Shown: positions 39,328-55,571, numbered from the stretch's first letter. The stretch: DNA of 64,000 bases from a virus (IMGVR_UViG_3300037400_003374:1-64000); one strand, 5' to 3'. The notes: a model not told the origin generated them from the letters alone. Numbers and translations: made by a program.

Positions 39328-39674
39328 AACAATTACCTTTCTGGTTTTTTAGGACTTTTCCTTGTCCTTTTGACGGTTAGAGTATAGCATAGTTTTCTGA
39401 GCGTGTCAAGCACTTTTTTTAAAAATCTTTTTTCTCACATATGTATATAGCCATAACTAACCGCTTGCCGGCGAACTAGTTAGTTTTAGCTAACCGGTGG
39501 GCCTTTTCCACCATGCATATTATAGCAAAGTCTTTTCAAACTGTCAATAGGTTTTTTTCGCAAGAGTGCCGGATCAGCATTGACACCTATTGAAATATAA
39601 TGATGATACTTTTATAACTATTATGCAAAAGAAAAAGCATGAACTTTTGTTCATGCTTTCTTTATCCGATTTAG

Positions 39675-39860
39675 TTACTCTCCGCAAGCGGTATATACTC
39701 TTTCACTCTTGCACCATACTTCAATACTTTCTTCACTTGTGAACTTGTCCCCGTCTTCTTCTTTGTAAAGCTTTTCAGCAATTGCAATGGCCTTTTCAAG
39801 TGTCTCAGCGGTCTCCCAAGCATCGAATCCTTCCCAAGTCTGTAAACCGATTGTAAACAT
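39675..39860 (-). CDS. Small hypothetical protein, family A, copy 3
   Basis: Paralog of 36162-36347. Confidence 0.75.
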   Translation of the reverse strand: MFTIGLQTWEGFDAWETAETLEKAIAIAEKLYKEEDGDKFTSEESIEVWCKSERVYTACGE

Positions 39861-40011
39861 TTTTCATACTTCCTTTCTTTTAATGTTCCCTCAGGAACTG
39901 TCTATATTATACAGCCGGCTATAAATTTTGTCAAGCACTTTTTTTATTTTTTTAAAAAACTTTTTTCCGGCATGGAAGGGAAAGGATTGTTTCCTTTCCC
40001 TTCCATATCTG

Positions 40012-40206
40012 TTACTGCTTTCCATATTCCTTGATGAGATACTCCAGATTGTAAGTCATGTCATGCAGTTTAGTGTTAGCGTAATAATCATCAAGTATGG
40101 AAGTGTCAGGATATGCTTTGTCAGCGAGAGAATGAATAACTTCAATGGCCTTCTGAAGGATAGCAATCTCATTTTCTGAGAGAGTGTAGCTAAAACGGTT
40201 AGTCAT
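40012..40206 (-). CDS. Small hypothetical protein, family D, copy 1
   Basis: Paralog of 46363-46560 (AIxVIHxLADKxYPD...KLHDMTYNL). Confidence 0.75.
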   Translation of the reverse strand: MTNRFSYTLSENEIAILQKAIEVIHSLADKAYPDTSILDDYYANTKLHDMTYNLEYLIKEYGKQ

Positions 40207-40425
40207 GGTGTAAACCCCTTTCCTTTAGTTGATGATTGAAGTATAATGCATTTTGATGTTTTTGTCAAGCACTTTTTTTAACTTTTTTCAAAAATTTTTT
40301 CTTTCATCAATTGTTATAACGTTATAACTTTTTTCCGGCATGCCGGCATGGTATACATGGCGATCCGTTAACAGAGATATAAAAAAGGGCTTTACGCCCT
40401 TTAATAGTGCCGTTTTCATTATAGT

Positions 40426-40587
40426 TTAAATTGAGTCACACAATGGCCAACCAAACATTTCCGACTCTTTGCACCATTCTTCAAAGGAAAGATAATGTGC
40501 ATAATCTCCATGCTCATAAATGATATCACTCACATAAGACTCATAACAATCACGTTTTTGTTCGTCGGTTAATTCTTTCCAAGTCAT
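40426..40587 (-). CDS. Small hypothetical protein, 53 aa
   Basis: MTWKELTDEQ...; GAAAGGGG RBS, own promoter. Confidence 0.65.
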   Translation of the reverse strand: MTWKELTDEQKRDCYESYVSDIIYEHGDYAHYLSFEEWCKESEMFGWPLCDSI

Positions 40588-40655
40588 TTTTTTCTTTCCC
40601 CTTTCTTTTGGGCTTTTCGTCCACAACTATATGATAATGCTTTTTTCTGTATTTG

Positions 40656-40880
40656 TCAAGTGACTTTTTCAATCACAAGCCAGCTATCATCAATCTCATA
40701 TGCATTTTCTGTTTTTGCTTGTATAGCTTTTCCCCATCCCATTCTAATACAATGATCTGCAGATGAGTATGTATCAAACGTTCCATTCCATTCACCAAAC
40801 TTAGTTGAAATATCGGGAGTGTCACAAAAGGCAATTTTGTAAAGTTCTGCATCCTTGTGTTTCTTGCTAAAAAGTTTCAT
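40656..40880 (-). CDS. Small hypothetical protein, 74 aa
   Basis: AGAAAGGA RBS, own promoter near 40935. Confidence 0.65.
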   Translation of the reverse strand: MKLFSKKHKDAELYKIAFCDTPDISTKFGEWNGTFDTYSSADHCIRMGWGKAIQAKTENAYEIDDSWLVIEKVT

Positions 40881-41103
40881 AATACTTCAGTCCTTTCTTT
40901 GAAGTATCTATATGATAGCATAGGCGCGCGAAAATGTCAAGCGAAAATTTTTAAAAAATTTTTTTAAAAAAACTCTTGACAACTTGTATCAGATGAGTAT
41001 AATATACATGACGGAACCGGAGAGAGGAGGGAGGAAACCGCCCAGTAGTTAGTTATGACTAACTAACTAGCAACTATAAGAAAAAAGGCCTTCCGGCCTT
41101 TTT

Positions 41104-41274
41104 TCAATCCATCATGATAACTTTTCCGCTTTCATAAACAATGTATGATTCCTCATCCGTTGCAGTCTCATCAAAAGCTTCGCACCATGCAATCACTTCG
41201 CTAAGTGTCTCAAAAGTTACTTCTAAGTCAGTGGGTTTCATTCCTTCATAGTTGGTGTAAATCTCGTACTTCAT
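41104..41274 (-). CDS. Small acidic hypothetical protein, 56 aa
   Basis: MKYEIYTNYEGMKPTDLEV...; RBS, own promoter and terminator; not in the ORF track. Confidence 0.65.
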   Translation of the reverse strand: MKYEIYTNYEGMKPTDLEVTFETLSEVIAWCEAFDETATDEESYIVYESGKVIMMD

Positions 41275-41467
41275 AATTCGTTGCCTTCTTTCTTTTAATC
41301 TGTTCCCTCAGGAACTGTCTATAGTATAATGCATAATAACCTTTTTGTCAAGTACTTTTTTTAAAAAAAAATAAAAAAAATTTTTTTCAAAAACCCCTTG
41401 ACAAATATAAATAAATGACTATAATATAATTGACAGGCCGGAGAGGGGAGGGGGAGGTGGACCATCG

Positions 41468-42282
41468 GTTAGTTATGACTAACTAACTAAAATTAGACAC
41501 GACTAACTTTAGTTAGATAAAACTAACTAGAGTTAGTTATGACTAACTCAATAATAGTTAGTTGTAACTAACTGCCTCATCCACCGGTCCCGATCCGGTC
41601 CGTAAAGTCAAAGAAAGTCAAAGTCAAAGAAAGTCAAAATCAGGCGCGAGTTAGTTATGTCTAACTATAGTTAGTCATGCCTAACTCAGGTGCCTTATCC
41701 GAACCGATCCGAAAAGTCAAAGAAAGTCAAAGTCAAAGACGAGTTAGTTATGACTAACTCAATATTAGTTAGTTATAGCTAATTATAGTTAGTTGCAACT
41801 AACTAGAGTTAGTTATGACTAAGTCACTATTAGTTAGTTGGCACTAACTAGAGTTAGTTATGACTAACTAACGTTAGTTGTACCTAACTACAGTTAGTTG
41901 TGACTAACTATAGTTAGTCATGTCTAACACGAGTTAGTTATGACTAAGTCACTATTGGTTAGGTATAACTAACTAGAGTTAGCCGTGACTAACTGTAGTT
42001 AGTGGTGTCTAACTAAAGTTAGACAAGCCTAACTTTAGTTAGCTGAGACTAACAGAAGTTAGCTGGGACTAACGCTAGTTAGTCAAGACTAACTAAAGTT
42101 AGCTGCGTCTAACTGAAGTTAGATATAACTAACTAAAGTTAGCTGGGACTAACTGGAGTTAGCTGAGACTAACTCCGGTTAGCTGTAACTAACTAAAGTG
42201 AGCTGAATCTAACTGTAGTTAGTTGTAACTAACTTTAGTCAGCTGAACCTAACTCCGCCGGCGCTGGTTAGTTATGCCTAAC
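41468..42282. repeat. Dense array of ~33 palindromic GTTAG-N6-CTAAC sites, including 15 units in exact 20-bp phase (41958-42253)
   Basis: Unit GTTAG-N6-CTAAC-N4; the N6 and N4 sequences vary while arms and spacing are fixed. Confidence 0.93.
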
Positions 42283-42305
42283 TACCTGGGCCGATCGCCG
42301 GCGCC

Positions 42306-42350
42306 TGTGGATAACTCTGTGGATAATTTTGTGGATAAAATTGTGGATAA
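42306..42350. promoter_or_regulatory. Four tandem perfect DnaA boxes (TGTGGATAA) at 12-bp period
   Basis: TGTGGATAA at 42306, 42318, 42330 and 42342, the reverse complement of consensus TTATCCACA. Confidence 0.88.
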
Positions 42351-42355
42351 GTGGG

Positions 42356-42384
42356 TTGACACATTAGCGCCCCGGGTGTATACT
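42356..42384 (+). promoter_or_regulatory. Strong sigmaA-type early promoter (representative of roughly 50 in 36300-57100)
   Basis: TTGACA-N17-TATACT. Similar TTGACA-N16-18-TATAAT promoters with upstream A/T tracts precede most small genes on both strands (approximate manual count). Confidence 0.85.
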
Positions 42385-42418
42385 TGACTCATCAAATGAA
42401 GGAAAGGAAGTCACGAAC

Positions 42419-42862
42419 ATGACCAAGGAAATGATGCAGGAACTTTACAACAAGGTATCGGGGGCTCACAAGTATGCTCTGGGCTTTATCTTCCAGCACA
42501 AGCTGTATGCCGTCAAGCTGAGCTTTGAGGGAATCAGTAAGTATTTCAAGCTGGACCATGCAAGCTCTAAGAGGGGCGGATATGCAAAAATCCGTATTCG
42601 CCTGACCGCCGCGGACCGTGCTAAGCTGAGTGAAGTGGCGGAGCTGCTGGGAGCTGAAGAGCTGCTGACCAAGGACACCAAGTACAACAAGGGTGAGAAC
42701 TTCGAACGGGAGCTGACAGAACGCTGGACCGGAGAAACCTGGGTAAAGGATAGTGTCCCCTTCTGGGTATGCGGTGATATCCGGGTAGACGGTGAAGAGA
42801 TTCAGATCAAGCTGGACGGTGCGGAGCTGACCAACGAGAAGGTACTGGCAGGGCTGGCCTGA
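42419..42862 (+). CDS. Hypothetical protein, family C, copy 2
   Basis: Paralog of 37559-38008; TGA stop. Confidence 0.8.
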   Translation: MTKEMMQELYNKVSGAHKYALGFIFQHKLYAVKLSFEGISKYFKLDHASSKRGGYAKIRIRLTAADRAKLSEVAELLGAEELLTKDTKYNKGENFERELTERWTGETWVKDSVPFWVCGDIRVDGEEIQIKLDGAELTNEKVLAGLA

Positions 42863-43033
42863 GGCCCTGCCGGATCGGCCCCGGCCGATCCTTTTCTATG
42901 CCGGCAAGCTGGGGCTGGAAAACGCGCCGGCGAGCTGGGCTTGCCGGCAAAAAATTTTTCGCTGGGGCGAAAAACCCCTTGACAAGCTGGCTGTAATACG
43001 CTATAATGTGTACATGAAAGAGAGGTGCTAAGT

Positions 43034-43228
43034 ATGGAGATTGTAAAGTTTGGACGGACTTGGGTAATAAATACTGTTGCTGACTATGAGCACGCCATGG
43101 AGGTACTGGACGGGAATGAGTTCTGCGCGGACATGTCGGACGACTGGGCACGCGCTGATAGGGAGAAAGCTGAGATAAGGCGGCAAAGGCGCGATGTCAT
43201 AGCACAAGCTGGCAAGCTGAAGGCTTGA
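43034..43228 (+). CDS. Small hypothetical protein, 64 aa
   Basis: GAGGTG RBS, own promoter at 42980. Confidence 0.65.
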   Translation: MEIVKFGRTWVINTVADYEHAMEVLDGNEFCADMSDDWARADREKAEIRRQRRDVIAQAGKLKA

Positions 43229-43275
43229 CAAGCTCCAAAATTATGATATAATTAATAGTGAAAGGAGCTGATAGC

Positions 43276-43788
43276 ATGGGCATAAAACGAGATTTTGCCC
43301 CAGTGACAAAAGCGCTGAATGCTTTTGTACGCAAGTTTGATGAAGAATATTCTTGTACACTTGGCCCCGCTTTTGAGGCCATTAATGATGAAATTATTAT
43401 CTATACTGTAATGGTATGTGATAATACTGCTCTTTCCTTCCGTAATGATTTTATAAAGCGTTTTCCCGCTTGTGCTGACTTCAATCTGTTTACATTATCA
43501 TTCATGCATGAACTGGGACACTTAGAAACGGCGCTGGATACAGTTAATGATATAGAAGAAAGAAATGAAATAAATGCTATGAGCAACCGCGAACTAGCAT
43601 TGACCAAATATTATCAACTGTATAATGAATGCCTCGCTACTAATTGGGCGGGACAGTATCTGACTAAACATCATAAGGATATGAAAGTCTGGGAAAATAA
43701 AATTACAAAACTTTTTAAAAAAGTACTTGACAAACATTCCACTAAGTCGTATAATGATGATGTTGAAAGGAGCGATTGTAATGAATAA
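43276..43788 (+). CDS. HExxH zinc metallopeptidase-like protein, copy 1
   Basis: LSFMHELGH motif plus downstream E-x-x-A; paralog at 56366-56806. Confidence 0.7.
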   Translation: MGIKRDFAPVTKALNAFVRKFDEEYSCTLGPAFEAINDEIIIYTVMVCDNTALSFRNDFIKRFPACADFNLFTLSFMHELGHLETALDTVNDIEERNEINAMSNRELALTKYYQLYNECLATNWAGQYLTKHHKDMKVWENKITKLFKKVLDKHSTKSYNDDVERSDCNE

Positions 43789-43999
43789 ATTCTACATGGG
43801 TATCGAGTGCCAGTGCCCGCTGTGCGGAGCAACCGCAAACGTGTATGTTAAGACTATTGATTATCGTGCTTGGCGTGCAGGCGCTTTAGCACAGACTGTT
43901 TTCCCCTACTTGAAACCGCAGGTACGGGAAATGTTAATTAGCGGTTTGTGCCCGACTTGCTATGATAGCTTGATGGGCGAGGATGAGGAGGGCGAGTAA
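43781..43999 (+). CDS. Zn-ribbon protein, 72 aa
   Basis: CQCPLC...CPTC; GAAAGGAG RBS; own promoter at 43728. Confidence 0.68.
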   Translation: MNKFYMGIECQCPLCGATANVYVKTIDYRAWRAGALAQTVFPYLKPQVREMLISGLCPTCYDSLMGEDEEGE

Positions 44000-44147
44000 T
44001 CGCCCTACCCTCCGCCCGCCGGCGGGGCCTTGAATTGGCGCGAGAACTGTGCTAAACTAATGATACGATATAAAAATTTATTTTAAAAAGTACTTGACAA
44101 AGAAATGAAAATGTCGTATAATCTAGCCATAGAAAGGAAGGATAGCA

Positions 44148-44600
44148 ATGATGAAACAGATTTGGTTTGACATGGATGGCACGATTGCAAACCTTTATGC
44201 AGTGGATGGATGGCTTGAAGATATTAGAGCAGAAAATACAAGGCCGTATAGCGAAGCAAAGCCTATGCTTAACTTCTCTCTGCTTGCTCGTTTACTGAAT
44301 CAGGTACAGCGTGCAGGATGGGAAATCGGAATTGTAAGTTGGGGAGCAAAGAATAGCACAGAAGAATTTTTGAAAATGACTGGTTGCGCTAAGTTCTATT
44401 GGCTTCAGAATCATCTCCCCTCTGTAAATTGGAATCACATTTATATTGATTATTACGGTACAAATAAATTTCAGCGTTGTGGCGGTGAAGGCATTCTGTT
44501 TGATGATGAAGCGCAGAATCGTGAAGCGTGGGAAAATGGCATGGCATACGAACCGATGGAAATTATCAATGTCTTGAAGCGGTTAGCAAAAGGGGCTTGA
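44148..44600 (+). CDS. HAD-superfamily phosphatase (nucleotidase-like)
   Basis: Motif I FDMDGT, motif II IVSW, motif IV LFDD. Confidence 0.8.
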   Translation: MMKQIWFDMDGTIANLYAVDGWLEDIRAENTRPYSEAKPMLNFSLLARLLNQVQRAGWEIGIVSWGAKNSTEEFLKMTGCAKFYWLQNHLPSVNWNHIYIDYYGTNKFQRCGGEGILFDDEAQNREAWENGMAYEPMEIINVLKRLAKGA

Positions 44601-44636
44601 CAAGCCCCTTGCAATCAAAGAAAGGAGCATTGAAGT

Positions 44637-44828
44637 ATGAGGGTTGAAGATTTGGCAAAGGCACTGTGGGTATTAGATAACGATAGCGCAAAACGGCATT
44701 GGACAGTAGAGAAAATTCAAGGCGGTTATATTCTTATGTCCGATCATACTCGCTTTACTGTAAAAGAATTAGCAAATAAATATGATGATAAGCATGAAAC
44801 AGATAGTATAATTCCTGGCTTTAATTGA
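44637..44828 (+). CDS. Small hypothetical protein, 63 aa
   Basis: GAAAGGAG RBS. Confidence 0.6.
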   Translation: MRVEDLAKALWVLDNDSAKRHWTVEKIQGGYILMSDHTRFTVKELANKYDDKHETDSIIPGFN

Positions 44829-44981
44829 CCAGATACGACAATGTCAAATCTGGTCGCCGGCAAATTTTTCCTAAACAATTTTGTTTTATATATCCCATAA
44901 CCTAATTTCATTCTGAATCGTTGAACAAAAATTTTTTTAAAAAGTGCTTGACATTTTCCTAAAATGGATTATAATAGTAAC

Positions 44982-45080
44982 TGTCAGAAGGGAAAGGGCT
45001 CCTTCTGATAGAACTTGGAACGGTAGGCAGAGTTTCCTCCCAACGTCGCCGCAAGCGTTGCCTTCCAAGTTCGCTCTACC
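44982..45080 (+). ncRNA. Candidate structured leader/sRNA with possible pseudoknot
   Basis: Promoter at 44948; 10-bp 5' hairpin; 10-bp stem GAACTTGGAA/TTCCAAGTTC; loop GGTAG complementary to downstream CTACC. Confidence 0.45.
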
Positions 45081-45102
45081 TAATTAAGAAGGAGAAAAGT
45101 AT

Positions 45103-45342
45103 ATGGAAAAGTATGTTTATGTTGTCACAATTGAAGATGAAGAAGGAATAACAATCTTTGGTGCTTATACTGATGCAGTATCTGCTACCAATACTGTATG
45201 GGCGCTTGCCTTTAATAGTCTGATTCAGGATATTGAAGAAGATTGTATAGGTACGCGATACATTGTTATCAATGCTTTGGGTAATAAGGAATCATATTAT
45301 GTCCAGAAAATTCCGCTAGATGACCAGTTCTGGACCCGATAA
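45103..45342 (+). CDS. Small hypothetical protein, 79 aa
   Basis: AAGGAG RBS. Confidence 0.68.
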   Translation: MEKYVYVVTIEDEEGITIFGAYTDAVSATNTVWALAFNSLIQDIEEDCIGTRYIVINALGNKESYYVQKIPLDDQFWTR

Positions 45343-45436
45343 CCCACCCCTTGCCGGCGGATTGTTAAAAATTTAACAAACTTTTTTTGAAAAAAGCGCT
45401 TGACAAAAACCCGAAAAGGAGTATAATCATACTTGT

Positions 45437-45530
45437 CAGAGGGACAAAGGATCACCTCTGGAAGTGCAAAGGGTAAGGGAATGATCCCCCAATTACACCG
45501 CAAGTGTCTTACCCTTTGGGCGACTCCCAA
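45437..45530 (+). ncRNA. Candidate stand-alone structured sRNA (three-way junction)
   Basis: Own promoter at 45400, no convincing ORF before the next promoter. Stems CAGAGG/CCTCTG, AAAGGGTAA/TTACCCTTT, GGGA/TCCC, ACAC/GTGT, TTGGG/CCCAA. Confidence 0.5.
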
Positions 45531-45629
45531 AAAAAATTTCAAAAACCTCTTGACATTCTAGTACAAAAGTACTATAATGAATACACAACAGAGGAAGGAA
45601 AACCTCATCAAACCAGAAAGGCAACCCCT

Positions 45630-45950
45630 ATGAAAAAGTCCACTCTTCAGTCTCTCGTTTCCTACCTGACCGAAAAGGGCGATGAGTCCATGCAGGAAGT
45701 CCTCGCAGAACTGACCGCAGAACTTGCAAAGGGACAGACCAAGGTTGATGCAACTCGGAAGGAATATGATGAAATGCGTGAGCAGGTCATGGAAGTCCTC
45801 CGCTCTGCTACCCTTCCTGTTTCTGCGCAGGAGATCGCCGATGAGACTGGCCTTTCAAAGGGCAAGATCGTCTATGGTCTGACTCGGCTGTGGGCCGCAG
45901 ATGTCGCAAAGACTGAGGGAAAGGTTAGCACCTACGCCCTCAAGGCCTAA
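45630..45950 (+). CDS. Winged-helix-like DNA-binding protein, family W (MKKST...), copy 1
   Basis: SAQEIADETGLSKGKIVYGLTRLW HTH-like segment followed by wing EGKVSTY; three close paralogs. Confidence 0.72.
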   Translation: MKKSTLQSLVSYLTEKGDESMQEVLAELTAELAKGQTKVDATRKEYDEMREQVMEVLRSATLPVSAQEIADETGLSKGKIVYGLTRLWAADVAKTEGKVSTYALKA

Positions 45951-46102
45951 TTTCAAAAAGGAACTCGCTTCGGCGAGTTCTTTTTTTATACAAGAGTTAG
46001 TTTCCTCTAACTCCGCCGGCGCAAAAAATTTTTTTAAAAACCCCTTGACAAGATAAGCATACTAGTGTATAATCTAACCATCAACTGAAGGAGGTCACCA
46101 TT

Positions 46103-47213: not shown

Positions 47214-47365
47214 TAGATAGGGGGAAACATTCCCCTATCTTACCAGATTGTACATGCCCGCATGCCGGCACGTCTGCCGGCGCGAGATTGACAGAAATTT
47301 AACAATCTTTTTTCAAAAAAGTACTTGACAAAAAATCCATTATCCCTTATAATACTCAATGTCAG

Positions 47366-47472
47366 GTGAGGGGAATAGCGCCTCCCTCACAAGAACCAGT
47401 GATTGAGGTGTGGCGACCCCAAGTAGACGAGGGTAACTCCTTGGAGAGGTAGAGTAGTCTTTCAGTCACTGG
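47366..47472 (+). ncRNA. Candidate stand-alone structured sRNA
   Basis: Own promoter at 47325; GTGAGGG/CCCTCAC hairpin, then 11-bp closing stem CCAGTGATTGA/TCAGTCACTGG around inner hairpins; no convincing ORF. Confidence 0.5.
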
Positions 47473-47544
47473 GACGAAAAAAATGCTTGACAAGCTGAGG
47501 AAATTATGCTATAATACTCACGTAATCAAGAGGAGGTGCAAGCT

Positions 47545-47682: not shown

Positions 47683-47783
47683 AAAAATTTTCAAAAAACT
47701 CTTGACAAATCACAAAACATCATGTATAATACTTAATGTAAACAGGGGAAGGAAAACCCCACAAACCAGAAAGGAATTGCCCT

Positions 47784-48113
47784 ATGAAAACTTCTTCTTA
47801 CGAAACTGTGTACGCTTTCCTGACCGCTAACGGATTTGAAGACGCCGAGATTCTCGCTGAGTTTGAGAAGGAAATTAACCGTAAGGCCGAAGTAAAGCAG
47901 GCCAAGGACACTCTGTACTCCGAAGCAAAAGCAATCGTGATGTCCGCTATTGAAGGCGCTTCCGCTACCATCGGTGAGATTTATGAAGCGGTTGAATCTG
48001 AACTCCCTGAGGGCTTCACCAAGGGCATGTTGCAGTACGCCATTACTCGCCTGTGGAAGGACGAACTTGTCAAGACTGAGGGCAAGGTCAATCGGTACTC
48101 TCGCAAGGTCTAA
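47784..48113 (+). CDS. Winged-helix-like protein, family W, copy 2
   Basis: Paralog of 45630-45950. Confidence 0.75.
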   Translation: MKTSSYETVYAFLTANGFEDAEILAEFEKEINRKAEVKQAKDTLYSEAKAIVMSAIEGASATIGEIYEAVESELPEGFTKGMLQYAITRLWKDELVKTEGKVNRYSRKV

Positions 48114-48264
48114 TCTCTAAGGCTCGCCTAGCGAGCCTTTTTTATGGCTATGAGTTAGTTGTGTCTAACTGCGCCGGCAAATTTTTTTTGAAAAAACTCT
48201 TGACATTTGTTTGAAAATCGATTATAATACCATTGTCACGAAGAGAAAGAAAGGTTGTGTAAAC

Positions 48265-48450: not shown

Positions 48451-48526
48451 AAAAACTCTTGACAACTTCTACAAGATCGGTTATAATAGCATTGTTCCCA
48501 AGAGGAACAGAAAGGGAGTAAATAAA

Positions 48527-48700: not shown

Positions 48701-48756
48701 ACAGACTGGTGCTATAATACAACTGTCCCAAAGGGAACAGAAAGGATGGATTGAAA

Positions 48757-48957: not shown

Positions 48958-48975
48958 GGAAAGGATGAATATAAA

Positions 48976-49146: not shown

Positions 49147-49187
49147 AATGGTATTGTTCTCAAGAAGAACAGAAAGGATGAATTAAA

Positions 49188-49412
49188 ATGTTTTATGGTA
49201 ACCATTTCCGCGGATTATGGAAATATGTTTGGTTTCGTTGCCTGATTACCTCTTTCGTTAATACGGTTGCAAACTGGGCAACTCGCCACGGTATCCCTTT
49301 TTATGTTTCTACTTGGTATAATATTAACAATGGTTTTACTGCAGACAAGATTGAAACTATGAGTAAACAGTATCTTGAATGGGCAAGGCAGAATGAGAAA
49401 GAAGATGATTAA
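49188..49412 (+). CDS. Small hypothetical protein, 74 aa
   Basis: AGAAAGGA RBS, own promoter. Confidence 0.62.
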   Translation: MFYGNHFRGLWKYVWFRCLITSFVNTVANWATRHGIPFYVSTWYNINNGFTADKIETMSKQYLEWARQNEKEDD

Positions 49413-49681
49413 AGTTGGTTAGTCGGCGCTAACCGCGCCGGCAAGGCGATCCGCCGGCAGGGTTAGTTATGACTAACTAACCCGAAAAAATTTTTTTATA
49501 AAATGCTTGACAACTTTTCAAAAATATACTATAATAAACATGTTCCAAGGGACGAGGTCAAGAAAATTCCAAACTGAAAAAAAAGTTTGAAAAAACTCTT
49601 GACAGACTTCCAAAACTATGCTATAATAAGCACGTAATCAAGGGAAGGAAAACCCTAACAAACCAGAAAGGACACTAAATT

Positions 49682-50008
49682 ATGAAGAAGTCTACTTTTG
49701 AAGCTATCCGCACCGCTCTTACCAAACTGGGTTATGACAATGCCGAAGTCCTTGCCGAGCTGGACAAGGAAATCAACAAAGGCGCTGATGTCAAGGCTAA
49801 GAATTCTGAGGTCTACGAGTCCTTCCACGACATTCTGATTGACAACCTCGCCACCTCTCCCGCAACTTGTGGCGAGATCTACGAGGCCATCAAGGACAAC
49901 CTCCCTGAGGGTATCACCAAGGGCAAGGTTCAGTATGCTCTGACTCATCTGTGGCAGGATGAGATTGTAAAGATTGAGGGCAAGCCTAATACCTACCGCA
50001 AGGCATAA
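49682..50008 (+). CDS. Winged-helix-like protein, family W, copy 3
   Basis: Paralog of 45630-45950. Confidence 0.75.
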   Translation: MKKSTFEAIRTALTKLGYDNAEVLAELDKEINKGADVKAKNSEVYESFHDILIDNLATSPATCGEIYEAIKDNLPEGITKGKVQYALTHLWQDEIVKIEGKPNTYRKA

Positions 50009-50133
50009 GCCTTTCCTTCTTGGTGGCGAAAACTGACTCGCCTTAATTGATGCGTAAGCGCTCCGTATAGCCAAGAACCACGAGAGTTTCTGAAGGGCTT
50101 TCAGTGTGGCTAAACAACACAAGCCCTTTATAC

Positions 50134-50219
50134 GGGAATGAGGACGATCAGATAATTGTCAGGCCCCTCGTGGGTAAGCGCAAGGCGCCAAGTGGGTGCG
50201 ACTCCCACCATTTCCACCA
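50134..50219 (+). ncRNA. tRNA-like element with alanine identity (G3.U70, A73, encoded CCA) and degenerate anticodon arm
   Basis: Acceptor GGGAATG/CATTTCC-A-CCA; T arm GTGGG-TGCGACT-CCCAC; D arm GACGAT/ATTGTC; extra arm GCGC/GCGC; terminator directly after. Confidence 0.68.
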
Positions 50220-50220
50220 A

Positions 50221-50242
50221 CCGCCTTCGGGCGGTTTTATTT
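50221..50242 (+). terminator. Intrinsic terminator
   Basis: CCGCC-TTCG-GGCGG followed by a T-rich tract. Confidence 0.85.
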
Positions 50243-50502
50243 TCAAGGCGAGTTAGTCTCAACTAACTCCGCCGGCGATGTTAGGCGTGACTAACTAAAA
50301 ATTTTTTTCTCCAAACTATTGACAAAATTTCAAAACTATACTATAATACAATTGTTCCAAGGAACGGGGACGGACTTAGGAAGGTGAGATGTTAAAGGTT
50401 GCCATGAAGTTTCTGTAGTCCCAGGAAATGGAGTGGCCAGGTTTCTGCGTGGCTTTCCCTGTTACGGAAAAAGTCACGCCCATTATGAAAGGGGTAAAAA
50501 TT

Positions 50503-50760
50503 ATGAGTAAAATTCTGGATGTAGAATGGCAGTCTTGGCATGAATTATCAGTGAATGTAGATGAAATTGTTGATGATTGTAAATATAGAATGGAAAAGTG
50601 GCATGTCCCTCTTGAAGAAGTAGTAGATATTGCAATTGAAGGTTATGTTTCTGGATTCGATGATGCACTGTATTACAGTTGGAACGAGGATGCGCAGAAA
50701 CAGGTAAGAGACGCCGTATTGCAGGCTTTCGGCGGTGTGCAGCTTAGCATGTTTGACTAA
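50503..50760 (+). CDS. Small acidic hypothetical protein, 85 aa, with a long structured leader
   Basis: GAAAGGGG RBS; promoter at 50319; leader hairpin GCGTGGC-TTTCC...GGAAA-AAGTCACGC. Confidence 0.62.
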   Translation: MSKILDVEWQSWHELSVNVDEIVDDCKYRMEKWHVPLEEVVDIAIEGYVSGFDDALYYSWNEDAQKQVRDAVLQAFGGVQLSMFD

Positions 50761-51029
50761 GCTAACCGCCCGCCGGCATATTTCTGCCGGCGGGAGTTAG
50801 TTATAACTAAGTAATTAAAAAAAATTTTTTCCAAGTAGTTGACATTCAGTGAAAATTGAGTATAATAGATACTGTCAGGAGGGAACAAGAGTCCCAATAA
50901 AAAAACTTTGAAAAAAAGTTTAAAAAAACTCTTGACAGACTTTCCAAAACCTGATATAATACAGATGTTCCCAAGGGAACGAACGAATGAGAAGGAAAAC
51001 TCAGCTAAACCAGAAAGGAAGATACCTCT

Positions 51030-51362
51030 ATGAAAAAGTCTACTATGAATGCTATCCTGTCCCTCATCTCCACCATGGATTCTCCCGAAGCTGAAACTGT
51101 ACGCAATGAGCTGACCGCTGAGCTGAACAGGGGAGCTGAAAAAGCTCAGGCAAATCGGGAGCTGTATGAGACCGCTTGGGATGCGGTTTATGGCGTGCTG
51201 GATGTCGAATATCCTGCTACTGTCGCTGAGATCTATGAAGCTGTAAAAGACTCTCTGCCCGCTGGTTTCACTAAGGCCAAGGTACAGTATGCGCTGGGAC
51301 ACTACTGGAACAAAGATGTCGTAAAGCATGAGGGCAAGGTTAACACCTACACTCGGGCTTAA
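51030..51362 (+). CDS. Winged-helix-like protein, family W, copy 4
   Basis: Paralog of 45630-45950. Confidence 0.75.
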   Translation: MKKSTMNAILSLISTMDSPEAETVRNELTAELNRGAEKAQANRELYETAWDAVYGVLDVEYPATVAEIYEAVKDSLPAGFTKAKVQYALGHYWNKDVVKHEGKVNTYTRA

Positions 51363-51598
51363 TTTCAACCTCTTGCGCCCTTCGGGGCGCCTTTTTATGC
51401 GCGGAGTTAGCCACAACTAACTCTGCCGGCCCGCGGTTAGGCAAGTCTAACTTCAAAAATTTTTAAAAAAAAATGCTTGACAATTTCCAAAATTATGCTA
51501 TAATAGACTCAAGAAGTTGAGGAACAGAAAAAAATTCCTCTTGACAACTTCTTAAAAACATGATACAATTAGTTGAACTTAAGGAAAGGATTGATTTT

Positions 51599-51937
51599 AT
51601 GAATAAGTCTCAGCTTGAAACCATGTTGCGCAACGACTACCTCGACACCCTTCAGAAACTTCTTTCCGAAAAATATGACACCGATGTGTTGCCTGTTAGC
51701 GCCAACGAACTTGCTCTCCCTTGTGTTGACGCGGAGGGCAACGAAAAATGGATTGTGGTAAAGGTTTCTACCCCTCGTGGGACTCGTGATGGCAAGGGCG
51801 GTTATATCCCTTATGATGGGTATGCTCTTGCGGAAGAATACCAGATGGAGTGCGAAGACAAGGCACAGGAAAAGGCCGAAAAACAGGCCATGAAGGAAAA
51901 GGAAAAGGAAAGCAAGAAAAAGAAAAAGGCCGAATAA
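51599..51937 (+). CDS. Hypothetical protein with Lys/Glu-rich C-terminus, 112 aa
   Basis: GGAAAGGA RBS; weak similarity to 55572-55970 and to the N-terminal half of 58679-59170. Confidence 0.7.
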   Translation: MNKSQLETMLRNDYLDTLQKLLSEKYDTDVLPVSANELALPCVDAEGNEKWIVVKVSTPRGTRDGKGGYIPYDGYALAEEYQMECEDKAQEKAEKQAMKEKEKESKKKKKAE

Positions 51938-52001
51938 TTCGGCCTTGACTTTCTCTTCATTCTATGCTATAATGGTCCACGTTGAAAGGAGCAATTTGAT
52001 T

Positions 52002-52688
52002 ATGAAAGATTTGTACATGGTATTTGATACGGAAACTTGCAACACTCCCAAAATTGATGGGCAGCTTGATACCAGCGCGGGCCAGGTTTATGACTTTGGT
52101 TTTCAGATTGTAGACAATGAAGGGAATGTTTATGAGGAACATTCATACGTCAATGAAGATGTATTCTTTGATCTTCCCGAAGCTATGCAAGAATCATTCT
52201 TTGCTGACAAAATCCCGCAGTACTTGGAAGGACTGCGCAACGGTTCCCATCAAATGGTTAACACTTGGGATTTATACAGGATTGTCAGGAAAATGGTCGA
52301 GAAGTACGACATTAAAGCCTTCATTGCGCACAATGCGCGCTTTGACGTTGCAGTATTAAATGCAACACTGCGTTATCAAACTAAAAGCGTTCGGCGGTAC
52401 TTCTTCCCTTATGGTATCCCCATTTGGGACACAATGAAGATGGCTAACGATACAATTTGTAAACTGTCGTCATATAAACAGTTTTGTGAAGTCAATGGAT
52501 ATATGACCAAGCATAAAATTCCACAGGTGCGCAAAACAGCGGAAATTTTATGGCGCTTCCTTCAGAAAGATAATGACTTTGAAGAAAAGCATACGGGCCT
52601 TGAAGACGTAAAAATTGAGGCGCAGATTTTCGCGGAGTGCGTGCGGAGACATAAGAAAATGGAACGCCTCGCAGACCTTGACAAATAA
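52002..52688 (+). CDS. DEDDh 3'-5' exonuclease (DnaQ-like), copy 1
   Basis: Exo I FDTET, Exo II AHNARFD, Exo III HTGLED. Confidence 0.85.
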   Translation: MKDLYMVFDTETCNTPKIDGQLDTSAGQVYDFGFQIVDNEGNVYEEHSYVNEDVFFDLPEAMQESFFADKIPQYLEGLRNGSHQMVNTWDLYRIVRKMVEKYDIKAFIAHNARFDVAVLNATLRYQTKSVRRYFFPYGIPIWDTMKMANDTICKLSSYKQFCEVNGYMTKHKIPQVRKTAEILWRFLQKDNDFEEKHTGLEDVKIEAQIFAECVRRHKKMERLADLDK

Positions 52689-52779
52689 GGCCCCGCGGGG
52701 CCGGCAAAAATTTTTTTCAAAAACCTATTGACATTTTTTCCAAGTTATACTATAATTAACAATGTCAGGAGGGATATGA

Positions 52780-52938
52780 ATGAAACGAGCACTGTATAAG
52801 CGTTATGATGAACTCTCTGCTTGGGATTTAAACAAAGGTTGCAGACATATTGTAAATCAGCATACTCCCGCAAGGCGCAGACTGAAAAAGGTATTGCGCA
52901 AGCAGGCACGTGCACGACTGAAAGGAGCGATATTATGA
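52780..52938 (+). CDS. Small basic protein, 52 aa
   Basis: GGAGGG RBS, own promoter; ATGA overlap with the next gene. Confidence 0.55.
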   Translation: MKRALYKRYDELSAWDLNKGCRHIVNQHTPARRRLKKVLRKQARARLKGAIL

Positions 52939-53240
52939 GGGATGCTATCATGGGAACTTATGACAGGGAGTATACTTACTGCCCTGTAAACGCTTACGGT
53001 AATTGCCCTTATTGTGATAAAAAGTGTATCTGTCACGTTGAAGACCCTTTGAAAGATTGCGATGATTGGGGCATGTTCTGGGGCAGTTGGGATGAATGGA
53101 AAAGGATTGACTGGGTAACCGAGGACAATTCCGCACAGGACGAGATTGAATGGGCCGAAGAAAACTACGGCTATGAAGAACCCGATAATATAGAAATGGG
53201 TTTTGACCCCTACGCAGGTTGTTATACAGATGACTGTTGA
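52935..53240 (+). CDS. Cys/Trp-rich acidic hypothetical protein, 101 aa
   Basis: GAAAGGAG RBS; CPVNAYGNCPYCDKKCIC; ends MGFDPYAGCYTDDC. Confidence 0.68.
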   Translation: MRDAIMGTYDREYTYCPVNAYGNCPYCDKKCICHVEDPLKDCDDWGMFWGSWDEWKRIDWVTEDNSAQDEIEWAEENYGYEEPDNIEMGFDPYAGCYTDDC

Positions 53241-53369
53241 GCGGGTTAGCTTCGGCTAACCCTGCCGGCCAAAAATTTTTTTCGGAAACCTCTTGACAAG
53301 GCCGAAAAGTATGATATAATATACAGGAAAGTTGAAGGAAAACAACTCAAACCAGAAAGGTATTTAAAA

Positions 53370-54035
53370 ATGAATTTCCTTGTACTTGATGGTGAGACTT
53401 GCAACACTCCCAAAATTGATGGCCAGTTAGATGTCAAAAATGGTCAGGTTTATGACCTTGGTGGAATGGTCATTGATGAGTATGGACAGGAAAAGATGCG
53501 GTTTAGCGTAGTAAATGAAGATGTATTCTTCAGAATGCCCTATCAGATGAAAGAAGCGTATTACAGCGAAAAAATCCCGCAGTACATTAAAGACATTAAC
53601 AGCGGGAAACGCAAGGTAGTAAATACTTGGCAGATGTGGAAAATGGTACAGAACATTTGCAAAGAATACAAAGTGCAGGCAATTGTTGCACATAATGCAT
53701 ACTTTGATATTCAGACATTAAATGCTACTATGCGCTATCAGACTAAATCAGCAAAGCGTTATTTCCTTCCCTATAAAATGAACGTCATTGACAGCTTAAA
53801 AGTTGCACGTAAAGTATTTAGCAATGATATTGATTACATTCAGTTCTGTAAGGAAAATGGCTATATGACCAATACCAAAACCCCTCGCCCTAGACTTACC
53901 GCCGAAGTATTATGGCGCTATATCAGCAATGACAATGATTTCATTGAAAGTCATACAGGATTTGAAGATGTGGAAATTGAAAGCAAAATTTTTTCAAAAT
54001 GTCTTGACAAAATCCGCAAACATGATATAATGTAA
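53370..54035 (+). CDS. DEDDh 3'-5' exonuclease, copy 2
   Basis: LDGET, AHNAYFD, HTGFED; paralog of 52002-52688. Confidence 0.85.
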   Translation: MNFLVLDGETCNTPKIDGQLDVKNGQVYDLGGMVIDEYGQEKMRFSVVNEDVFFRMPYQMKEAYYSEKIPQYIKDINSGKRKVVNTWQMWKMVQNICKEYKVQAIVAHNAYFDIQTLNATMRYQTKSAKRYFLPYKMNVIDSLKVARKVFSNDIDYIQFCKENGYMTNTKTPRPRLTAEVLWRYISNDNDFIESHTGFEDVEIESKIFSKCLDKIRKHDIM

Positions 54036-54061
54036 TCATCAACCAGAAAGGAATTGATAAT

Positions 54062-54199
54062 ATGAAAGTGTACATCAAGAATGTTGCTCAGGAACAGACA
54101 GTACGTGAACTTCCCTTTACTCATGCCCTTTGGCTTCGGTGGAAAGTCTTCACCATGTACGCCAAAAAGGGTAGGCCCATTGTCAGATTTTTAATCTGA
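54062..54199 (+). CDS. Small basic protein, 45 aa
   Basis: CCAGAAAGG RBS, own promoter; not in the ORF track. Confidence 0.55.
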   Translation: MKVYIKNVAQEQTVRELPFTHALWLRWKVFTMYAKKGRPIVRFLI

Positions 54200-54246
54200 C
54201 CTTGGGCGGCCCTTCCATCAGAATTTAATAAAAGGAGAAATGAAAT

Positions 54247-54489
54247 ATGGATACTAACATGACTATCGCCAATATGCTTTATGAAGCTAACAAGATGCCC
54301 TACGATGACGTGACATTACTGATTAAAAAGTTGCGGGCAGTCCAAGCACGAAAGGCATTACAGCGCCAGTTTCATGAGCGCATGAATGACTTGATTCAGG
54401 AAGCACGGGAACAGGGTTTTGAGTTTGTAGATCATACTTGCGGATACCTTTGGCGCGAAGACGAATTCACGGTATTTGATAACGAATGA
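54247..54489 (+). CDS. Small hypothetical protein, 80 aa
   Basis: AAGGAG RBS. Confidence 0.65.
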   Translation: MDTNMTIANMLYEANKMPYDDVTLLIKKLRAVQARKALQRQFHERMNDLIQEAREQGFEFVDHTCGYLWREDEFTVFDNE

Positions 54490-54540
54490 TGGGAGAAATC
54501 CCATCATTCGGGAGCCCGCCGGCACGCTAGGCCCACTTTG

Positions 54541-55046
54541 TCAAGAGTGGGCGTTGCAAGCGTAGTCAATAATTACGGGATGCCCTTCTTTCCAGCCATA
54601 ATTCTGATTGTGTACGTCATAAATATGTTCCATAACCCAATCGCATTCATCGCCTACCAAATACTCATAAACGTCATACTGATATTTACCAATTCCAGGA
54701 ATTCTAGGCATGATGCAGAAGGAATGGCCCATATATTCAACCATGGTGGGTTTTGCTAACAGATGAGCAAAACCCTCTTTTTCTGCCAAAGCATACAACT
54801 TAACTTCATCAGCACAGGAACCAAAGTCATGCACATTACGATAAGAACCAAAATCATATTTGATAACATAGTCAGAAGTAATAAAGCACACACGAGTCAG
54901 GCATGTGTAAACACAACATGACGCTGATGGTCATAGTTAAAATGACGCACTGCCTTTTCAAACTGATGCCAGCTATCACAATTGGCGATATAGTCATAGA
55001 ACTGATGCAGGAACTTCTCAGCGCGAACTTCATAACTAGTCTTCAT
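54541..55046 (-). pseudogene. Frameshifted kinase-like paralog of 46701-47213
   Basis: MKTSYEVRAEKF...VFTH then CAT GCC TGA. One extra G near 54900 would give HGLTRVCFI, matching HGVSRIAII of the paralog. Downstream DVHNQN and IIDYA motifs are intact. Confidence 0.72.
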
Positions 55047-55312
55047 ACTTCATTCCTCCCTTTCATGAGTAGAGTATAGCATACTATTAAAATCCTGTCA
55101 AGCACTTTTTGAAAAAAATTTTCGGCGCGCCGGCGCGGTTAGATGCGTCTAACTGTTTGACAATTTTTAAATTTTAGAGTATAATATATATGAAAGTTGA
55201 GGGAAGAAATTCAAAAAAATGAAAATTTCCTCTTGACAAACTTTCAGACCCATGCTATAATAGACCCATCAAGTGAAGGAAAACACTTAAAAACCAGAAA
55301 GGAAAATACCTC

Positions 55313-55483
55313 ATGCGTTACTATGTTACATTCATCCTTTGCAAGAATGGTGAAATTCTCAGACTTTGGAACAGTTCAGACCGCTTTGCAGAACGAGTAA
55401 AAGCAATGGAGATGGCACAGACTCTTGTGAGGAATATCCAAGATAGTGGATATAGCATTTATTATAAAATTAAGGAAATATAA
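55313..55483 (+). CDS. Small hypothetical protein, 56 aa
   Basis: AAGGAAAA leader hairpin and AAACCAGAAAGG RBS; not in the ORF track. Confidence 0.62.
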   Translation: MRYYVTFILCKNGEILRLWNSSDRFAERVKAMEMAQTLVRNIQDSGYSIYYKIKEI

Positions 55484-55571
55484 AAATTCTTCTTGACAAG
55501 CTTCCCGATTCATGCTATAATCAATACATCAAGTGAAGGAAAACACTTCAAACCAGAAAGGATATACCCTT

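What the first reader, a model, noticed from the sequence alone, without database searches (positions are those of the whole stretch)
39351..55548. Covarying 5'-UTR hairpin with invariant AAGGAAAA loop in eight early mRNAs (CsrA-like GGA-loop operator)
Seen: eight leaders carry a 4-5 bp stem whose sequence changes while pairing is kept around the same 8-nt loop. The stems are GAGG/CCTC (45591), GGGG/CCCC (47745), AGGG/CCCT (49641), TGAG/CTCA (50988), AGTTG/CAACT (53330), AAGTG/CACTT (55271, 55531) and AGGAC/GTCCT (minus strand, 39351-39368). Each is followed by AAACCAGAAAGG, which contains the SD. All four family-W genes have it. Compensatory changes are direct evidence for an RNA structure. 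Established: CsrA/RsmA bind GGA in hairpin loops near the RBS, and many flagellated Firmicutes have CsrA. Inference: a translational regulon, either read by host CsrA or a phage RNA-binding protein, or acting as a CsrA sponge.
Basis: partly seen in the sequence, partly recalled or inferred. Interest (0 to 1): 0.8.

Follow-up and report, generated by a model that had tools for sequence, protein, structure and literature searches.

The report
Mini-pseudoknot leader before phage early genes
Eight strongly promoted early genes of this uncultured ~180-kb phage of gut/rumen Clostridia start with the same ~36-base RNA leader, a short hairpin whose loop also pairs with two bases just before the ribosome-binding site; it is a real, uncatalogued RNA motif, but the evidence argues against the proposed CsrA reading.

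Summary
Eight leaders at the stated coordinates carry a covarying 4-5 bp stem, the loop AAGGAAAA, a 1-3 nt spacer, AAACCAGAAAGG, and ATG 8-11 nt later. Each lies 9-25 nt after a near-consensus sigmaA-type -10. A covariance model finds exactly these eight in the window.

The motif recurs in hundreds of copies in related IMG/VR phage contigs. It sits before at least 70 unrelated gene families. In an unfiltered set, 97% of copies have a stem of 3 bp or more, against 21% when partners are shuffled.

New here: loop G3 pairs with tract C5. All 18-20 genuine variants with loop AACG... carry the tract AAACGAG, and no half-changed copy exists. One A:U case and one G.U case also fit. The element is therefore a tiny H-type pseudoknot that ends exactly where the SD begins.

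The CG variants have no GGA. No CsrA gene was found in this phage record (41% complete) or in five complete relatives. It is also missing from 9 of 10 bacterial genomes that carry the motif, including a cultured Ruminococcus. Host CsrA is therefore unlikely, and so is a loop that acts as a decoy SD.

Most likely the element is a portable cis-acting leader for translation initiation or mRNA stability. A protein or ligand operator remains open. There is no Rfam match. This scan has already met the same motif on other genomes, and one earlier follow-up reached the same pseudoknot reading.

The parts
45550..45632 (+). Element 1. Promoter TTGACA-17-TATAAT 45550-45578. S1 GAGG 45591-45594 / CCTC 45603-45606. 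Loop 45595-45602, with G3G4 at 45597-45598. Tract AAACCAGAAAGG 45610-45621, with C4C5 at 45613-45614. ATG 45630. The gene is family W, 45630-45950.
   Evidence: (50.9 bits)
47702..47786 (+). Element 2. Promoter 47702-47730. S1 GGGG 47745-47748 / CCCC 47757-47760. Loop 47749-47756. Tract 47763-47774. ATG 47784. The gene is family W, 47784-48113, followed by a terminator at 48119-48139.
   Evidence: (55.8 bits)
49599..49684 (+). Element 3. Promoter 49599-49627. S1 AGGG 49641-49644 / CCCT 49653-49656. Loop 49645-49652. Tract 49660-49671. ATG 49682. The gene is family W, 49682-50008.
   Evidence: (54 bits)
50932..51032 (+). Element 4. Promoter 50932-50960, then a separate 5' hairpin GTTCC-CAAG-GGAAC at 50967-50980. 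S1 TGAG 50988-50991 / CTCA 51000-51003. Loop 50992-50999. Tract 51007-51018. ATG 51030. The gene is family W, 51030-51362, followed by a terminator at 51375-51390.
   Evidence: (45.9 bits)
53293..53372 (+). Element 5. Promoter 53293-53320. S1 AGTTG 53330-53334 / CAACT 53343-53347. Loop 53335-53342. Tract 53349-53360. ATG 53370. The gene is a 221-aa DnaQ-like exonuclease homologue (phrog_20187).
   Evidence: (48.5 bits)
55233..55315 (+). Element 6. Promoter 55233-55261. S1 AAGTG 55271-55275 / CACTT 55284-55288. Loop 55276-55283. Tract 55291-55302. ATG 55313. The gene is a 56-aa ORF.
   Evidence: (57.6 bits)
55493..55574 (+). Element 7. Promoter 55493-55521. S1 AAGTG 55531-55535 / CACTT 55544-55548. 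Loop 55536-55543. Tract 55550-55561. ATG 55572. The gene is a 132-aa member of the second recurrent family ('C1').
   Evidence: (52.5 bits)
39325..39409 (-). Element 8, on the minus strand. Promoter 39409-39381. S1 AGGAC 39368-39364 / GTCCT 39355-39351. Loop 39363-39356. Tract 39347-39336. ATG 39327. The gene is a 99-aa ORF, 39327-39028.
   Evidence: (48.5 bits)
54033..54054 (+). A hairpin-less relative. Promoter 54004-54031 is followed directly by ATCAACCAGAAAGG and an ATG. It keeps the CCAGAAAGG tract but has no stem-loop.
   Evidence: 17.6 bits

Best explanation
Each element is a compact H-type mini-pseudoknot at the 5' end of a phage early mRNA. S1 is the covarying 4-5 bp stem. Within the 7-8 nt loop, A1A2 form L1, G3G4 form the 5' strand of S2, and the remaining A-rich bases form L2. 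After S1 comes an A/C-rich L3 of 4-6 nt ending in AAA. It is the right length and composition to lie in the S1 minor groove. Then comes CC, which pairs with the loop GG to form S2. The SD AGAAAGG starts at the very next base and is complementary to the extreme 3' tail of 16S rRNA (CCUUUCU).

I read it as a portable, cis-acting leader cassette. It folds the first ~30 nt of the message into a knot that abuts the SD. This leaves little naked RNA for 5'-end-dependent decay and delivers an always-exposed SD at fixed geometry. The two S2 pairs may also stack on the SD:anti-SD helix, so that CCAGAAAGG is fully paired in the initiation complex.

Shown: the anatomy, the S1 covariation, the G3:C5 covariation, the position behind promoters, the spread over unrelated genes, and the lack of any link to CsrA. 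Inferred: the transcription start sites, the tertiary contacts of L3, the stacking with 16S, and the effect on stability and translation.
For: S1 is well supported. On a 140-copy alignment, 98.4% of cells are paired, there are 157 double-sided changes, and 0 of 500 shuffles reach that score (that alignment was pre-filtered for stems of at least 3 bp). Unfiltered, 97.1% have at least 3 bp against 20.6% shuffled.

S2 is supported by several counts. With loop positions 3-4 and tract positions 4-5 left free, 278 unique genuine copies split into 258 GG/CC, 18 CG/CG, 1 AG/CT and 1 doubtful copy, with no half-changed copy. IMG/VR-wide scans gave AACGACA+AAACGAG in 15 of 15 genuine copies, AACGACA+AAACCAG in 0 genuine, AAGGACA+AAACGAG in 0 genuine, and AAGGACA+AAACCAG in 66 genuine. 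Among double variants, all 20 genuine copies are complementary (19 C:G, 1 A:U). The 81 chance matches scatter over all nine combinations. On a model-made alignment, pair 10-35 is GC 59, CG 20, AU 1 and unpaired 0, and pair 11-34 is GC 79, GU 1. The CG type precedes at least 5 unrelated protein families and has at least 8 different S1 stems.

Position: in 223 of 258 copies a consensus promoter lies upstream, and S1 starts 7-18 nt (mostly 9-14) after its -10. ATG follows the tract at 7-11 nt.

Portability: 245 downstream proteins fall into 70 clusters. The three largest hold 82, 49 and 24 members.

The 16S 3' end of a carrier genome reads ...GGATCACCTCCTTTCTA, and AGAAAGG(A) pairs with its last 7-8 bases.

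In Firmicutes, structures that occlude the 5' end and strong SDs stabilise whole mRNAs (review PMC3997798). A leader pseudoknot is needed for efficient initiation of E. coli rpsO (reference cited in PMC8470358).
Against: There are no transcript, half-life or translation data, and the start sites are only predicted. S2 has just two pairs and only one of them covaries. The CG type could descend from a single event spread by cassette copying, so the number of independent compensations may be as low as two or three. On its own the hairpin is weak, with minimum-free-energy z-scores of -1.5 to +0.4, and it appears in the MFE fold of 5-6 of the 8 leaders. A purely cis role does not obviously explain why the unpaired A's and the AAACC stretch are so invariant while other early leaders of the same phage use many different SD contexts. 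That degree of invariance is more typical of a site read by a specific partner. Two copies carry a 6-nt insertion between CC and the SD, so strict adjacency is not absolute.
Confidence: 0.5

Rival explanations
1. The pseudoknot is an operator or aptamer. A dedicated partner, either a phage or host RNA-binding protein other than CsrA or a small molecule, binds it and controls SD access. This would co-regulate an early regulon consisting of family W, family C1, the DnaQ-like exonuclease and others. The logic would resemble T4 gene 32, gene 43 or RegA, E. coli rpsO-S15, or a preQ1-I-type riboswitch.
For: About 20 unpaired or tertiary positions are nearly invariant across hundreds of copies, while the adjacent coding sequences have drifted to 13-40% identity. 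63% of copies sit before three recurrent gene families. In complete relatives, all 2-10 copies cluster within about 10 kb. The topology, with P1, an A-rich tail and a short P2 next to the SD, is that of the smallest known riboswitch class. A two-pair S2 would benefit from a stabilising partner.
Against: No candidate reader was found. Family W folds as an ordinary winged-helix protein with a long N-terminal helix (pLDDT 92.9). Family C1 matches nothing. No CsrA or bS21 gene is present in the phages. The element also occurs before unrelated genes in two mobile-element loci of a cultured Ruminococcus that share no proteins with these phages. That argues against a phage-encoded reader. The regulated genes suggest no metabolite. 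S2 does not overlap the SD.
Confidence: 0.27
2. Host CsrA binds the GGA in the loop plus the SD region, as in glgC and hag, and represses these mRNAs, or the abundant leaders act as a sponge for CsrA.
For: The window's eight copies do look like a CsrA site. They have a short stem, GGA in the loop, and a second GG 22-23 nt downstream in the SD. This is within the 10-63 nt range that a CsrA dimer can bridge (review PMC7652899).
Against: A conserved sub-family has loops AACGACA or AACGAAAA with no GGA. The loop GG covaries with the tract CC, so it is paired rather than offered to a protein. PF02599 is absent from the window's record (41% complete), from five complete relatives, and from 9 of 10 motif-bearing bacterial genomes, including an isolate. 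The base rate in that order is 19%. Only 5 of 8 SD tracts read GGA.
Confidence: 0.04
3. The loop AAGGA is a decoy Shine-Dalgarno, of the STAB-SD or SP82 polypurine type. It holds a 30S subunit at the 5' end to block RNase J1.
For: AAGGA is complementary to UCCUU of the 16S tail. In the window, 48 of 52 predicted early transcripts have an anti-SD-complementary element (-6 kcal/mol or stronger) within their first 20 nt, against 24% in shuffles. 5' stabilisers of this kind are established in Bacillus (PMC3997798).
Against: CG-type loops cannot pair with the anti-SD, yet they keep the whole architecture. The GG is engaged with CC. The statistic is dominated by short leaders whose real SD is simply near the 5' end.
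Confidence: 0.08
4. The repeats are only recombination cassettes, like the PeSLs of T4-type phages. They would be conserved through gene conversion rather than through any RNA function.
For: The region is a mosaic of about 59 near-identical promoter cassettes before small ORFs. The same leader precedes at least 70 unrelated families. PeSL-mediated shuffling is documented (PMC2839356, PMC4122927).
Against: Conversion would also homogenise the stems and promoter spacers. Instead the 8-nt and 12-nt blocks are invariant while the 4-5 nt between them vary and covary. PeSL stem-loops are terminators upstream of the promoter, whereas this hairpin lies in the leader.
Confidence: 0.05

Closest known systems
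preQ1-I riboswitch (Rfam RF00522)
   Same: It is a very small H-type pseudoknot in a 5' leader. It has a roughly 5-bp P1, a loop that supplies one strand of a very short P2, an A-rich tail crossing P1, and the 3' strand of P2 next to the SD.
   Different: There is no match to the Rfam model. The conserved bases differ. S2 has two pairs and stops just before the SD rather than covering it. The downstream genes are phage early genes, not queuosine genes. No ligand is known.
Bacillus 5' mRNA stabilisers (aprE leader with 5' stem-loop plus strong RBS; cryIIIA STAB-SD; SP82 polypurine element)
   Same: These operate in a Firmicute setting. A structured 5' end plus a strong SD sits in a short leader behind a strong promoter, and the unit is portable to unrelated genes (PMC3997798).
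   Different: Those elements need no invariant loop and have no loop-tail pairing. Here the hairpin alone is weak, and the SD-like loop sequence is dispensable in the CG sub-family.
Operator pseudoknots of E. coli rpsO (S15) and phage T4 gene 32
   Same: A pseudoknot in the leader next to the ribosome-binding site docks with, or competes with, the 30S subunit. In rpsO it is also needed for efficient initiation (PMC8470358).
   Different: Those are single-gene autoregulatory sites read by the encoded protein. This one precedes dozens of unrelated genes, and no reader is known.
CsrA/RsmA binding sites (glgC, hag leaders)
   Same: They have a short hairpin of 4 bp or fewer with GGA in the loop and a second site at the SD about 20 nt downstream (PMC7652899).
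   Different: Here GGA is not conserved across the family. The GG is base-paired. CsrA genes are missing from the phages and from most carrier genomes.
PeSL promoter/stem-loop cassettes of T4-type phages
   Same: They are repeated early-promoter modules that flank small, variable ORFs and probably help to shuffle them (PMC2839356, PMC4122927).
   Different: The PeSL stem-loop is a terminator upstream of the promoter. Here the structure lies in the transcribed leader and shows RNA-level covariation.

Membership tests
CsrA/RsmA operator | [quoted passage not shown] | tested here: not met
   GGA is present in the window's 8 copies. However, 18-20 genuine family members have loops AACGACA, AACGAAAA or AACGGAAA, and the GG covaries with the tract CC.
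CsrA/RsmA operator | A second GGA site overlapping the SD, 10-63 nt from the first | tested here: inconclusive
   The GG of the SD lies 22-23 nt downstream. Only 5 of 8 window copies read GGA there.
CsrA/RsmA operator | A CsrA protein available in the phage or the host | tested here: not met
   PF02599 was found in 0 of 1 for this record (41% complete), in 0 of 5 complete relatives, and in 1 of 10 motif-bearing bacterial genomes, with none in the isolate G001. It occurs in 38 of 201 genomes sampled from that order. The true host is unknown.
CsrA/RsmA operator | Binding and repression by CsrA | not testable with these tools
   This needs EMSA and reporter assays.
preQ1-I riboswitch (RF00522) | H-type pseudoknot topology with an A-rich tail and a short P2 beside the SD | tested here: met
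   Searches support this, at the level of topology only.
preQ1-I riboswitch (RF00522) | A match to the family covariance model | tested here: not met
   No RF00522 hit was found at E up to 1 on 24 kb or at E up to 10 on 326 nt.
preQ1-I riboswitch (RF00522) | Control of queuosine or preQ1 genes, and ligand binding | tested here: not met
   The downstream genes are winged-helix family W, family C1, an exonuclease and ORFans. Ligand binding cannot be tested here.
Firmicute 5' mRNA stabiliser (aprE / STAB-SD type) | A structure or SD-like site within a few nt of the mRNA 5' end | tested here: inconclusive
   S1 starts 9-14 nt after the -10, which is about +2 to +8 of the predicted transcript.
Firmicute 5' mRNA stabiliser (aprE / STAB-SD type) | A longer mRNA half-life that depends on the element | not testable with these tools
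   This needs rifampicin chase experiments or RNase J1/Y depletion.
PeSL cassette | A terminator-type stem-loop upstream of a repeated early promoter | tested here: not met
   The hairpin lies downstream of the -10, in the leader, and has no U-run.

The most novel reading that the evidence does not exclude
The 24-26 nt pseudoknot is a sensor or docking device rather than a passive cap. In one version it would be the smallest aptamer or operator yet seen, letting the phage switch a whole early regulon through one protein or metabolite. In the other it would be a structured translational enhancer, whose two S2 pairs stack on the SD:anti-SD helix at the very 3' terminus of 16S rRNA and so extend that helix from within the mRNA.
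Probability: 0.25. Interest if true: 0.8.

Novelty: new variant of a known kind. Interest (0 to 1): 0.6.

Why it matters
This is an abundant structured RNA motif of phages and mobile elements of gut and rumen Clostridia that is in no RNA catalogue. It comprises hundreds of copies, two covarying helices and about 36 nt. If it boosts or stabilises expression, it would be a ready-made, very short, portable 5' leader for gene expression in anaerobic Firmicutes, which are hard to engineer. If it is an operator or aptamer, it would define a new post-transcriptional regulon of large phages. It would also be among the smallest specific RNA recognition folds known. It also serves as a caution. A GGA hairpin next to an SD looks like a CsrA site, but family-wide covariation shows the GG is there to pair with the mRNA's own tail.

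Tried and rejected
- DNA similarity: megablast and blastn of 8 kb against 50,697 phage records gave no match.
- Rfam 15: no family matched, with either lax or strict filters.
- Phage-encoded reader candidates: CsrA and ribosomal protein bS21 are both absent from five complete relatives.
- Family W as an RNA binder: Pfam and PDB profile hits are only weak matches to winged-helix DNA binders. The model is a long helix plus a winged helix, and the best fold matches are Z-alpha, ArsR and Fur domains at E of about 0.01.
- Family C1: no sequence or fold match.
- Host chromosomal origin of the leader: only 1 of 151 genomes in the family of the Ruminococcus isolate has it, so it belongs to the mobilome.
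- Extra complementarity to 16S rRNA beyond the anti-SD tail: only 6-mers that could arise by chance.
- An antisense partner (TTTTCCTT in a same-region transcript): none found.
- G.U versus A.C asymmetry as a way to fix the strand: too few non-Watson-Crick pairs to be informative.
- Thermodynamics: the z-scores of the leaders are unremarkable.
- An SD-sequestering alternative helix using the 3' arm: rejected, because the arm varies while the SD does not.
- A second covarying S2 pair (G4:C4): no genuine double variants were found.
- A MAFFT alignment of mixed loop lengths (A5) was unusable for S2. It was replaced by a model-made alignment (A6).

Full report
WHAT THE WINDOW IS. The window is the first 64 kb of a 73.7-kb IMG/VR virus record that CheckV rates 41% complete. 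Complete relatives with terminal repeats are 180-200 kb long. No cultured phage resembles it at the DNA level. Between about 36 and 61 kb lie some 59 near-consensus sigmaA-type promoters, TTGACA-16/17-TATAAT with A-rich upstream tracts. Each stands in front of a small ORF, and many are followed by a terminator.

THE OBSERVATION. It consists of a 4-5 bp stem, the loop AAGGAAAA, the other arm, 1-3 nt, an exact AAACCAGAAAGG, and ATG 8-11 nt later. The coordinates and stem sequences are as reported. A covariance model (R1, built from 140 copies) run without filters finds these eight at 46-58 bits and nothing else above 18 bits. The 18-bit hit, at 54033-54054, keeps the SD tract but has no hairpin.

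THE ELEMENT IS A FAMILY, AND THE STEM IS REAL. Among 173 unique copies taken without any stem filter, pairs 1-3 are 97-98% Watson-Crick, pair 4 is 86% and pair 5 is 33%. In this set 97.1% have at least 3 bp, against 20.6% when 3' arms are shuffled among copies. More than 40 different stems occur. On the 140-copy alignment, 98.4% of cells pair, there are 157 double-sided changes, and 0 of 500 shuffles reach that score. That alignment was pre-filtered for stems, so the unfiltered figures are the fair ones. The same pattern scanned over 185,579 bacterial species gave a built-in control. Hits in Proteobacteria, Bacteroidota and other non-Firmicutes have 0-1 bp stems and no ATG. Hits in Clostridia MAG contigs have the stem, a promoter and an ATG.

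POSITION. In 223 of 258 copies a consensus promoter lies upstream, and the stem begins mostly 9-14 nt after its -10. That corresponds to about +2 to +8 of the predicted transcript. Most of the remaining copies have weaker promoters.

A SECOND HELIX. While classifying the leaders of family-W homologues, I found copies whose loop reads AACGACA and whose tract reads AAACGAGAAAGG. Number the loop A1 A2 G3 G4 A5... and the tract A1 A2 A3 C4 C5 A6 G7... The change G3 to C then always comes with C5 to G, which is the antiparallel partner. The evidence is as follows.
- With these four positions left free, 278 unique genuine copies (stem of at least 4 bp plus an ATG) split into 258 GG/CC, 18 CG/CG, 1 AG/CT (an A:U pair) and 1 doubtful AT-rich copy. 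None is half-changed.
- Four database-wide scans completed the 2x2 table for 7-nt loops. GG/CC gave 66 genuine copies, CG/CG gave 15, CG/CC gave 0 and GG/CG gave 0. The four non-genuine matches have stems of 0-1 bp.
- A degenerate scan for any double variant at this pair returned 20 genuine copies, all complementary. One of them, an A:U copy in L367, has an AT-rich stem and may be a chance match. The 81 chance matches spread over all nine combinations.
- On an alignment made by the S1-only model, and therefore blind to S2, pair G3:C5 is GC 59, CG 20 and AU 1 with none unpaired. Pair G4:C4 is GC 79 and GU 1. This alignment was deliberately enriched for CG-type loci.
- CG-type copies precede at least five unrelated protein families and have at least eight different S1 stems.
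Caveats apply. Only one of the two pairs covaries. The CG type may stem from one event spread by cassette copying.

THE RESULTING ANATOMY. The element is an H-type mini-pseudoknot. S1 has 4-5 bp, L1 is AA, S2 is GG:CC and L2 is 3-4 A-rich bases. L3 is 4-6 A/C-rich bases ending in AAA. The loop-to-tract distance is nearly constant at 6-7 nt whatever the stem length. The SD AGAAAGG begins at the base after S2.

WHAT THIS DOES TO THE CsrA READING. The window's copies do resemble a glgC/hag-type CsrA site (review PMC7652899). The family, however, tolerates loops without any GGA, and the GG is paired. PF02599 was not found in this record or in five complete relatives. It was also not found in the isolate Ruminococcus sp. 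Marseille-P6503. That genome holds two full copies, one beside a Zot-like ATPase and one beside an XRE regulator. CsrA is present in only one of ten motif-bearing bacterial genomes, against 19% of genomes sampled in that order. MAG binning is weak evidence for host identity, and the real host of this phage is unknown, so CsrA cannot be excluded outright. Nothing now points to it.

The same variants also argue against the idea that the loop acts as a decoy SD. That idea had looked attractive, because 48 of 52 predicted early transcripts carry an anti-SD-complementary element within their first 20 nt.

WHAT IT PRECEDES. The 245 downstream proteins fall into 70 clusters.
- Family W has 82 members and holds four of the window's genes. 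The model is confident (pLDDT 92.9) and shows a long helix plus a winged helix.
- A second family has 49 members and includes the window gene at 55572. It consists of a helix, a three-stranded sheet and a long helix, and has no match.
- A DnaQ-like exonuclease family has 24 members and includes the window gene at 53370.
- The remaining 67 clusters are small.
In complete relatives, all 2-10 copies lie within about 10 kb of the early region. Only 1 of 151 genomes in the family of the Ruminococcus isolate has the element, so it belongs to phages and mobile elements rather than to host chromosomes.

MECHANISM. The most economical reading is a portable cis-acting leader. [quoted passage not shown] A leader pseudoknot can also be needed for efficient initiation (rpsO, cited in PMC8470358). 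Here the knot folds nearly all RNA upstream of the SD. The SD pairs with the last seven or eight bases of 16S rRNA. In the initiation complex, the 16S 3' end would therefore abut loop G3, and CCAGAAAGG would be paired throughout. This stacking idea is an inference. It would account for the choice of AGAAAGG, for the zero spacing between S2 and the SD, and for why an S2 of only two pairs could matter.

The main rival is an operator or aptamer read by an unknown protein or ligand. It is favoured by the extreme invariance of the unpaired bases and by the recurrent gene set. It is weakened by the lack of any candidate reader and by the element's presence in unrelated mobile elements. I put the cis-acting reading at about 0.5, the operator/aptamer reading at about 0.27, the decoy-SD reading at 0.08, a recombination-only cassette at 0.05 and CsrA at 0.04.

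STATUS. No Rfam 15 family matches. This scan has met the same motif on other genomes. One earlier follow-up read it as a hairpin leader of aprE/STAB-SD type. I reached the loop-tail pairing, before I read that note.

Noticed in passing
window 36000-61500, both strands: There are about 59 near-consensus sigmaA-type promoters (TTGACA-16/17-TATAAT, an A-rich UP tract, often an extended TG). Each precedes a small ORF, and the two arms diverge from about 41-42 kb. The consensus scan finds 95 sites against 43 expected.
   Followed up: partly
window minus strand, -35 hexamers at 36425, 36871, 37186, 39031, 39934, 41351; plus strand at 48459, 48690, 49121, 49507, 50319, 50932: A second leader class has the hairpin GTTCC-N4-GGAAC (or close variants) starting about 7 nt after the -10, that is, at the predicted 5' end. 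Unlike the pseudoknot S1, its stem sequence is conserved. Promoter 50932 carries both this hairpin and the pseudoknot.
   Followed up: partly
window 44976-45110, 45428-45550, 47354-47490 (+): A third class of transcript start reads TGTCAGRRGGGA. At least two of these promoters (45400, 47325) drive stretches of about 110-130 nt without an ORF, so they are possible small RNAs. The one at 45428-45550 contains GGATCACCTC (about 45449-45458), identical to the 16S rRNA 3' region including the start of the anti-SD.
   Followed up: no
window 36000-58500: 48 of 52 predicted early transcripts have an element complementary to the 16S 3' tail (-6 kcal/mol or stronger) within their first 20 nt. The median start is +6.5, against 24% in shuffles. 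For short leaders this element is simply the real SD.
   Followed up: partly
L176:5000-5500 and L230:1440-1560 (Ruminococcus sp. Marseille-P6503): A cultured isolate carries two complete copies (promoter, pseudoknot, SD, ATG). They sit before unrelated ORFans, one next to a Zot-like ATPase and an SF3-helicase-like gene, the other next to an XRE regulator. This is a clue that Ruminococcus or Oscillospirales are hosts for elements using this leader.
   Followed up: partly
L134, L182, L211, L162, L145 (Clostridia MAG contigs): In some relatives the pseudoknot is preceded by another conserved hairpin, CAAGGTTGAGGGAAACAACCTTG-like, instead of a sigmaA promoter. This suggests compound leaders or a different promoter class.
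   Followed up: no
window 1-36000: Only four ORFs of 250 aa or more occur in the whole window under table 11, all on the minus strand below 30 kb.
   Followed up: no
window 41530-41760 and near many promoters: GTTAG-N6-CTAAC palindromes (TTAGTTATGACTAAC-like) recur between cassettes and inside several leaders, for example after promoters 40976 and 41398. The winged-helix family W is an obvious but untested candidate binder.
   Followed up: no
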